DNA from: Cetorhinus maximus
Taxonomy: Eukaryota
Assembly (NCBI RefSeq): GCF_964194155.1
Contig: NC_135904.1
Span: 11,656,001 to 11,720,000 of the forward strand
Reading direction: 5' to 3'
Length of the DNA stretch: 64,000 nucleotides
Shown here: piece after piece, positions 36,108-36,380 of the stretch
Layout: every line of letters begins with the position of its first letter
Numbering within the stretch: the first letter of the stretch is position 1
Position numbers and translations under genes: made by a program
The notes under the pieces: model-generated
What the model saw: only the letters and a program-made list of their open reading frames with translations
Told to the model about the DNA's origin: nothing
The model's database searches: none

Positions 36108-36380
36108 ATAAAAGCAAAATACTGCAAATGCTGGAAATCTAGAACAAAAACAAAAATACCTGGAAAAACTCAGCAGTTCTGATATCATCTGCGGAGAGGG
36201 ATACAGTTAACGTTTCGAGTCCGTATGACTCTTCACCAGAATTTAAAAATATAGAAATGAGATGAAATATAAGCTGGTAGAGGGGGTGGGACAGGTAGAG
36301 CTCAATAGGGGGCCAGTAGAGACCAAGAAGAGACAAAAGGACAAAGGGGTGTTGACGGTGATGATATTATCTAAAGGATG
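36108..36380 (-). mobile_element. Penelope-like terminal repeat with hammerhead-like core
   Basis: Minus strand reads AATT-CTGGTGA-A-GAGTC-ATACG-GACTC-GAAACGTT-AACT, followed by the family tail. Confidence 0.7.

What the first reader, a model, noticed from the sequence alone, without database searches (positions are those of the whole stretch)
36200..36245. Dispersed short repeat carrying a minimal type I hammerhead-ribozyme core
Seen: at least seven copies of a 100-300 bp repeat (31741, 31907, 33135, 35068, 36200 minus, 38590, 52698) share one layout. It is stem I 5' arm (AGTT), then a CTGANGA-like box, a short hairpin (here GAGTC-ATACG-GACTC), GAAACGTT, and stem I 3' arm (AACT). The box reads CTGATGA at 38592, CTGAAGA at 52700, CTGGTGA here and CTGCCGA at 35072, where CAGTT/AACTG forms a clean stem I. 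Established: CUGANGA and GAAA are the hammerhead catalytic core, and Penelope-like retroelements carry minimal type I hammerheads whose palindromic stem III (ACGU) is thought to work as a dimer. Inference: this is an abundant non-autonomous Penelope-derived, ribozyme-bearing repeat family. Every copy here has at least one defect, so the consensus rather than these copies would be the active form.
Basis: partly seen in the sequence, partly recalled or inferred. Interest (0 to 1): 0.7.

Follow-up and report, generated by a model that had tools for sequence, protein, structure and literature searches.

The report
Penelope retrotransposon ends with drifting hammerhead
The repeat is the broken-off end of a very abundant Penelope-type jumping gene and carries a known kind of tiny, predicted self-cutting RNA motif; its younger lineages replaced a normally fixed core letter and kept spreading, which likely means fast cutting is not needed for jumping.

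Summary
The motif is real: 20,902 exact genome matches against 0 for the control, about one copy per 10 kb. It is the known minimal type I hammerhead in the pseudo-LTR of a Neptune-type Penelope-like element. The window copies are 5'-truncated 3' ends of an autonomous element: relatives run into GIY-YIG and RT, and one has a 926-aa open frame between two motif-bearing repeats. So 'non-autonomous family' is mostly wrong. The 36200 copy belongs to a subfamily with a textbook core, and its G6 is probably private decay. There is no single active consensus: position 6 went A to U to C in successive lineages, and 35068 is a young C6 copy (11,860 exact C6 matches). Meanwhile 12 other core positions never changed and stem II gained a compensatory pair. 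In 42 of 45 head-to-head pairs the 35-nt tail is on one arm only, often the shorter arm, which points to two separate primings. Cleavage is untested. This scan had already noted the family and the A6 loss on other DNA, including this genome.

The parts
36110..36410 (-). 5'-truncated 3' end of a Penelope-like element (A6/U7 subfamily): about 166 nt of 3' UTR, hammerhead motif, tail
36204..36244 (-). Minimal type I hammerhead motif; predicted cut between 36209 and 36208
36240..36244 (-). Stem I 5' arm (AAATT; subfamily TAGTT, two private changes)
36232..36239 (-). Core box CTGGTGA (G at position 6, probably private) plus the extra A between A9 and stem II
   Evidence: PMC4209133
36217..36231 (-). 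Stem II GAGTC/GACTC with 5-nt loop
36204..36216 (-). GAAA, palindromic helix III remnant (ACGT), U16.1/N17, stem I 3' arm AACTG
36110..36144 (-). Optional about 35-nt tail (between the two preferred 3' end points)
34913..35214 (+). Copy of the young C6/C7 subfamily (96-98% like its best relatives), private G12C, flanked by a 9-nt direct repeat (34904-34912, 35215-35223)
33138..33267 (+). Short tailed copy of the A6/A7 subfamily starting at the motif, box decayed
38587..38694 (+). Old-subfamily copy (shorter stem II loop), box intact, helix III and stem I decayed, no tail
31756..31837 (+).
31829..31974 (.).
52697..52833 (+). Tailed arm of a head-to-head pair (A6/A7 subfamily), starts at the motif
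51306..51378 (-). 3' part of the untailed inverted arm of the same insertion (its 5' part lies at 52676-52696); whole insertion flanked by a 13-nt repeat with 1 mismatch (51293-51305, 52834-52846)
51379..52675 (.). About 1.3-kb Harbinger-like (class inferred) DNA element inserted at the GTT triplet of the inverted arm, GTT duplicated

Best explanation
The 36200 sequence is a decayed, 5'-truncated 3' end of an autonomous Neptune-type Penelope-like retrotransposon, and the motif is that element's pseudo-LTR minimal hammerhead, which likely cuts only slowly, as a dimer or with help from the element's protein, and is likely not needed for copying. Shown: continuity with the RT and GIY-YIG frame; the motif in both pseudo-LTRs of full elements; several subfamilies; two preferred 3' ends; one-sided tails; A to U to C replacement at core position 6 with the rest of the core and the stems kept. 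Inferred: the RNA starts at about the first base of the motif (promoter in the upstream pseudo-LTR); the protein, likely a dimer, nicks both target strands and primes reverse transcription twice, once at each of two internal sites about 100 and 135 nt past the motif start; this leaves a tailed and an untailed arm head to head, or a single truncated copy such as 36200. Copies are made mostly from uncut RNA. The focal copy itself is likely dead (private changes in the box and stem I).
For: 19 relatives of the focal copy (82-88% alike) extend upstream by different lengths into a GIY-YIG region and RT (Pfam GIY-YIG E 0.00094, below its curated cutoff). 9 of 12 long loci fetched show motif-ORF-motif partial tandems 3.3 kb apart; L080 holds a 926-aa stop-free frame with RT motifs, a CX4CX2C linker and YIGET. 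Its best homologues carry RVT_1, some also GIY-YIG. 23 of 25 C6 copies have ORF sequence within 1.8 kb upstream; 3 of 4 extended keep 560-616 aa open through RT and endonuclease; they differ 1.9% from their consensus. Tree with positions 6-7 masked: U6+C6 clade support 98.3, C6 nested in U6. Zero changes at 12 core positions against 1.1 per site upstream; U-A to C-G in stem II. On 24 copies, 87% of stem cells pair and no slid register exceeds 43%. 3' ends of 60 unbiased copies: 20 at +100-109, 20 at +130-139. Tail on exactly one arm in 42 of 45 pairs, 48% expected; tailed arm shorter in 18, longer in 10, equal in 8 of 36. PMC11167929 (parts 1-2 read): two internal RT starts define the tail, the protein is a predicted dimer, the ribozyme cuts only with protein and mutants still insert. 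PMC7151607 (passages, Table 1): A6C slows cleavage strongly at 0.3 mM Mg.
Against: No cleavage, transcript start or strand data: only contigs were available. The 30 nt downstream of the motif (+55 to +84) are as conserved as the core (1 change), so core conservation need not mean catalysis. Covariation rests on few events among related sequences (50 of 500 shuffles reach 4 doubly changed pairs), and the A6/A7 subfamily has a C-A mismatch in stem I. The L080 protein itself got no Pfam or PDB hit. Subfamily ages come from sets chosen by similarity or exact pattern and are biased low; only A6/A7 oldest (9.7%) and C6/C7 youngest (median 2.0%) are clear. No full-length C6 element with both pseudo-LTRs was seen in the 4 loci extended. 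Two primings versus an antisense self-priming model (PMC3846280, passage) is not settled.
Confidence: 0.78

Rival explanations
1. In the younger lineages the motif no longer cuts at all and is kept only as a transcription-start, folding or protein-binding element of the pseudo-LTR.
For: A6 lost in 10 of 11 otherwise intact motifs of the unbiased sample; flanking 30 nt equally conserved; no arm of 39 pair rows ends at the cut site; Naiad PLEs thrive without the motif (PMC8557442, passages).
Against: C3, U4, G5, G8, A9, GAAA, the ACGU palindrome and U16.1 never changed; position 17 toggles only between U and C, both cleavable (NUH rule recalled); natural C6 hammerheads keep low activity (PMC3088659, PMC7151607 passages).
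Confidence: 0.3
2. The short copies are a dedicated non-autonomous ribozyme retroelement (retrozyme or SINE-like) that amplifies from its own short RNA.
For: About 47 of the first 100 listed A6/A7 copies begin within 11 nt of the motif start (my hand count); 7,389 matches of that pattern.
Against: The other roughly 53 continue into pseudo-LTR; U6, C6 and A6/U7 copies mostly extend far upstream; short copies show no sequence of their own in the alignments viewed; no tandem arrays or restarts at the cut were seen; retrozymes are tandem units (bioRxiv 10.64898/2026.07.22.740005, part 1).
Confidence: 0.1
3. The resemblance to a hammerhead is chance in an ordinary repeat end.
For: Rfam finds no hammerhead; the focal copy folds no stem I in the minimum-energy structure.
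Against: Position in both pseudo-LTRs, extra nucleotide after A9, G10.1-C11.1, palindromic 15.2-16.2 all match PMC4209133; compensatory pairs; descriptor 11 hits versus 0 shuffled.
Confidence: 0.02

Closest known systems
Minimal hammerheads (min-HHR) of metazoan Penelope-like elements (Cervera and De la Pena 2014, PMC4209133)
   Same: Type I layout, 4-5 bp helix I, no helix III beyond a palindrome, extra nucleotide between 9 and 10.1, G10.1-C11.1 in most subfamilies, place in pseudo-LTRs, mostly solo copies from truncated elements.
   Different: Helix II is 5 bp; whole young lineages carry U6 or C6; no shark is named in the parts read (supplements not seen); copy number about 4x10^5 by extrapolation against thousands of motifs reported for coelacanth and Xenopus.
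Neptune-clade EN+ Penelope-like elements (PMC8557442, PMC3846280)
   Same: Single ORF with RT then CX2-5CxxC linker then GIY-YIG; partial tandems; inverted 5'-truncated arm; 30-40-nt tail often on one end only.
   Different: Clade assigned by the linker only, no RT tree with references; the one-sided tail is here quantified (42 of 45) and is often on the shorter arm.
PAc, Poseidon element of Anolis carolinensis (Frangieh et al. 2024, PMC11167929)
   Same: Two preferred 3' ends a tail apart downstream of the hammerhead; no pile of ends at the cut site.
   Different: Other clade; there the ORF starts inside stem II, here the long open frame begins about 140 nt after the motif start (L080).
Natural A6C hammerhead of phage Bcep176 (PMC3088659, PMC7151607)
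   Same: C at core position 6 with the rest of the core intact.
   Different: Single phage motif with full helices; here a minimal dimer-type motif in over 11,000 genomic copies, reached through U6.
Non-LTR retrozymes (bioRxiv 10.64898/2026.07.22.740005)
   Same: Type I hammerhead related to PLE pseudo-LTRs.
   Different: Retrozymes are tandem non-coding units; these copies are dispersed truncation products of a coding element.

Membership tests
PLE minimal type I hammerhead | CUGANGA and GAAA core with UH triplet | tested here: met
   Met by the focal copy's subfamily (CTGATGA, GTC) and A6/A7 and old subfamilies; the focal copy itself has G6.
PLE minimal type I hammerhead | A at position 6 in the U6 and C6 lineages (incl. 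the 35068 copy) | tested here: not met
   (55 of the first 100 listed have U6)
PLE minimal type I hammerhead | Helices I and II supported by covariation | tested here: met
   Stem II pair 1 G-C/A-U, pair 2 A-U/G-U/G-C, pair 4 U-A/C-G; stem I outer pair U-G/C-G only; few independent events
PLE minimal type I hammerhead | Palindromic 15.1-16.1 without helix III; extra nucleotide after A9 | tested here: met
   ACGT and the extra A in all five subfamily consensuses; ACGU duplex only -1.7 kcal/mol
PLE minimal type I hammerhead | Self-cleavage as dimer or with protein | not testable with these tools
   No raw RNA reads served; no bench data
EN+ Penelope-like element | One ORF with RT and C-terminal GIY-YIG | tested here: met
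   L080 itself had no Pfam hit
EN+ Penelope-like element | Pseudo-LTR partial tandems, inverted arms, optional tail | tested here: met
Neptune clade | CX2-5CxxC linker before the endonuclease | tested here: met
   CNHRRCNTC at residue 792 of L080; feature from PMC8557442
Neptune clade | Placement in an RT phylogeny | not tested
   No reference RT set was fetched
Non-LTR retrozyme / non-autonomous family | Tandem non-coding units each with a hammerhead, distinct from the coding element | tested here: not met
   Dispersed or head-to-head copies continuous with the ORF; no genome-wide tandem search was run
Rfam Hammerhead_1 | Covariance-model match | tested here: not met

The most novel reading that the evidence does not exclude
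A still-recent autonomous Penelope lineage ran tens of thousands of insertions with U, C and (in a side branch) G at the invariant hammerhead A6 because its own protein replaces the A6 contacts or sets cleavage timing, and each inverted insertion records a fixed division of labour in a dimeric enzyme: one subunit always primes at the distal start and the other at the proximal start.
Probability: 0.2. Interest if true: 0.65.

Novelty: new variant of a known kind. Interest (0 to 1): 0.32.

Why it matters
Why Penelope-like elements keep a weak hammerhead is open (PMC8557442, PMC11167929). One genome here holds matched natural A6, U6, G6 and C6 versions on nearly the same element with intact RT and endonuclease parts, so the need for cleavage can be tested directly. 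The strict one-sided tail gives a genomic test of the two-start, dimer model of Penelope integration. The focal copy alone is an ordinary dead repeat end.

Tried and rejected
Rfam scan: no hammerhead. Pfam and PDB searches of the 926-aa frame: nothing; the atlas look-up gave no result. Idea that the focal G6 marks an active G6 lineage: a small G6 branch exists (196 exact matches; both arms G6 in L152 and L166/167; 13 of 16 G6 copies fall in the U6 clade), but the focal copy is 4.7% from the A6/U7 consensus and 11.8% from the G6 group, so rejected for this copy. Copies starting at the cut site (+36): none exactly among 60 unbiased copies; four start at +32 to +34, beside transposon ends or inversion joints; my '37-41 cut' bin was misplaced and I read the listing instead. 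Extra untemplated G before short copies (earlier scan notes): by hand count, G precedes AGCT in 6 of 23 non-foldback starts and C in 10, so not supported for this subfamily. Simple fold-back of the tailed cDNA as the source of inverted arms: rejected for 18 of 36 pairs (3 of 39 rows dropped for gaps over 60 nt). RNA runs: small word shares, contigs only; no clean splice joint, start or end could be read. A loop II pseudoknot with the 3' flank looks possible by eye in the A6/U7 subfamily but was not tested. The Lunse et al. paper on dimer-cleaving variants is not held; it and the unseen supplements of PMC4209133 may already list position-6 variants or shark motifs. Searches for a shark PLE hammerhead or A6U variant in print found none.

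Full report
Observation. The window is G000:C27:11656001-11720000 of a 4.0-Gb genome; a shark-like host is inferred from the repeats and from a 67% identical Chiloscyllium protein. The minus strand at 36244-36204 reads AAATT CTGGTGA A GAGTC ATACG GACTC GAAA CG TT AACTG. All seven listed copies exist, with three more fragments. The repeat is abundant: 20,902 exact matches of a 34-nt pattern versus 0, and 65 profile hits in 64 stretches of 10 kb taken at fixed coordinates versus 0 reversed, which extrapolates to about 4x10^5 pieces (arms of pairs counted apart). Rfam has no match.

What it is. The 19 best relatives of the focal copy's region read TAGTT CTGATGA A G(G/A)GTC ATACG GACTC GAAA CG TC AACTG and extend upstream by different lengths through a pyrimidine-rich 3' UTR into a GIY-YIG region and an RT. 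A search with the RT part and extension of 12 loci gave nine motif-ORF-motif partial tandems; L080 has a 926-aa open frame with RT motifs, a CX4CX2C linker and YIGET, the Neptune signature in PMC8557442 (passages). Pfam and PDB missed this protein, but its homologues carry RVT_1 and often GIY-YIG. The window copies are thus truncated ends of an autonomous Penelope-like element, and the motif is the pseudo-LTR minimal hammerhead of PMC4209133 (parts 1-2 of 4 read), including the extra nucleotide after A9 and the palindromic ACGU.

Structure. On 24 real copies from all subfamilies, 87% of stem cells pair, against at most 43% in slid registers; 4 of 10 pairs change on both sides, which 50 of 500 shuffles reach. 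At subfamily level stem II shows G-C/A-U, A-U/G-U/G-C and U-A/C-G exchanges. Stem I is short and has a C-A mismatch in the A6/A7 subfamily. The focal copy folds stem II but not stem I.

Position 6. After an earlier scan note (e1-8633240) I tested core drift. Of the first 100 matches listed, 55 have U6, 39 A6 and 6 G6 (hand count). A C6 pattern has 11,860 matches versus 0. Of 11 otherwise intact motifs in the unbiased sample, 1 has A6, 4 U6 and 6 C6; shuffles gave 0. A tree of 116 copies with positions 6-7 masked (copies with under 130 nt of upstream homology or an unreadable box left out) puts A6/A7 at the base by chosen root, then A6/U7, then a U6 clade (98.3) holding C6. The 35068 copy is of the youngest C6/C7 group (1.9% from consensus in 25 copies picked by similarity), which is linked to the ORF in 23 of 25 loci and keeps RT and endonuclease open in 3 of 4 extended loci. 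Along the chain of five consensuses, 12 other core positions never changed while the upstream 70 columns changed 79 times (gaps counted); but +55 to +84 changed only once, so conservation is not proof of catalysis. The focal copy nests in the A6/U7 clade, so its G6 is probably a private transition, although a small G6 branch exists elsewhere. A6C lowers the rate in Mg strongly in two other hammerheads (PMC7151607, passages and Table 1; PMC3088659, passages).

Ends. Among 60 unbiased copies, 20 end at +100-109 and 20 at +130-139 from the motif start: the Penelope tail. In 45 head-to-head pairs of like arms (15 of 60 pairs dropped for arm identity under 85%), 42 have the tail on exactly one arm (p about 4e-10 against 0.5). 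The tailed arm is shorter in 18, longer in 10 and equal in 8 of 36 measurable pairs, so each arm often holds sequence the other lacks; this fits two primings on RNA better than fold-back of one cDNA. One-sided tails are described qualitatively in PMC8557442 and PMC3846280 (passages); PMC11167929 (parts 1-2 of 4) ties the tail to two internal RT starts. The window's 51306/52833 pair follows the rule and has a 13-nt flanking repeat. Many short arms and about 47 of 100 listed A6/A7 copies stop near the motif's first base, none at the predicted cut, which suggests an RNA that starts at the motif and is copied uncut (inference; also in earlier scan notes). The extra G claimed in those notes was not evident here.

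Mechanism. Shown: identity, subfamilies, ends. Inferred: transcription from the upstream pseudo-LTR starting at the motif; slow dimer- or protein-assisted cleavage that is not required for copying; two primings per inverted insertion. RNA data were contigs only and could not test starts or cleavage.

Literature seen. As stated above, plus bioRxiv 10.64898/2026.07.22.740005 (part 1 of 5 and passages), PMC6765202 (passages, section 11 part 2), PMC6155905 (passages). Lunse et al. was not held and no supplements were read; either may already cover position-6 variants or sharks. Searches showed no paper on this shark family.

Verdict. A real, known kind of motif on an autonomous Penelope-like element. 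The focal copy is an ordinary decayed end. The family-level loss of A6 and the strict one-sided tail are modestly interesting and testable; the family and the A6 loss were already noted by this scan.

Noticed in passing
window 51379-52675; G000 genome-wide: A Harbinger-like element (class inferred) sits on the GTT triplet of the motif. 70 exact junctions of such an end with the motif's 3' half versus 0 control; 7 of 20 loci showed the 5' half within 1.5 kb, 5 with matching 3-nt duplication. Noted before by the scan in other genomes.
   Followed up: partly
L152, L166/L167, L174 and 196 exact genome matches: A small G6 branch inside the U6 clade; both arms of inverted pairs carry G6, so it was in the template RNA.
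   Followed up: partly
window 36110-36165(-) and all subfamilies: Each of the two preferred 3' ends lies about 20 nt after a TTTCCAG repeat, a candidate duplicated RT-positioning signal.
   Followed up: no
L080-L088, pseudo-LTR to ORF junction: CAG/GTA followed about 57 nt later by a pyrimidine tract and TTAG looks like a short intron before the ORF; RNA contigs showed no such joint among those listed.
   Followed up: partly
window 40682-42109(-): Rhodopsin-family GPCR frame (7tm_1 E 7.6e-57), relaxin-3-receptor-like by recall; its 5' part runs into an assembly gap at 41758-41957.
   Followed up: no
window 37135-37208(-) and 3011-3102(+): tRNA-Lys(CTT) gene (Rfam 65 bits) and a tRNA-Thr-like hit that is probably a SINE head (inference).
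   Followed up: no
window 7425-8051, 16122-16862, 46073-46516, 56829-57248: Fragments of CR1/L2-type LINE reverse transcriptase frames (family by recall).
   Followed up: no
window 58200-59720: Long GT/GA-rich simple repeat giving spurious long frames.
   Followed up: no
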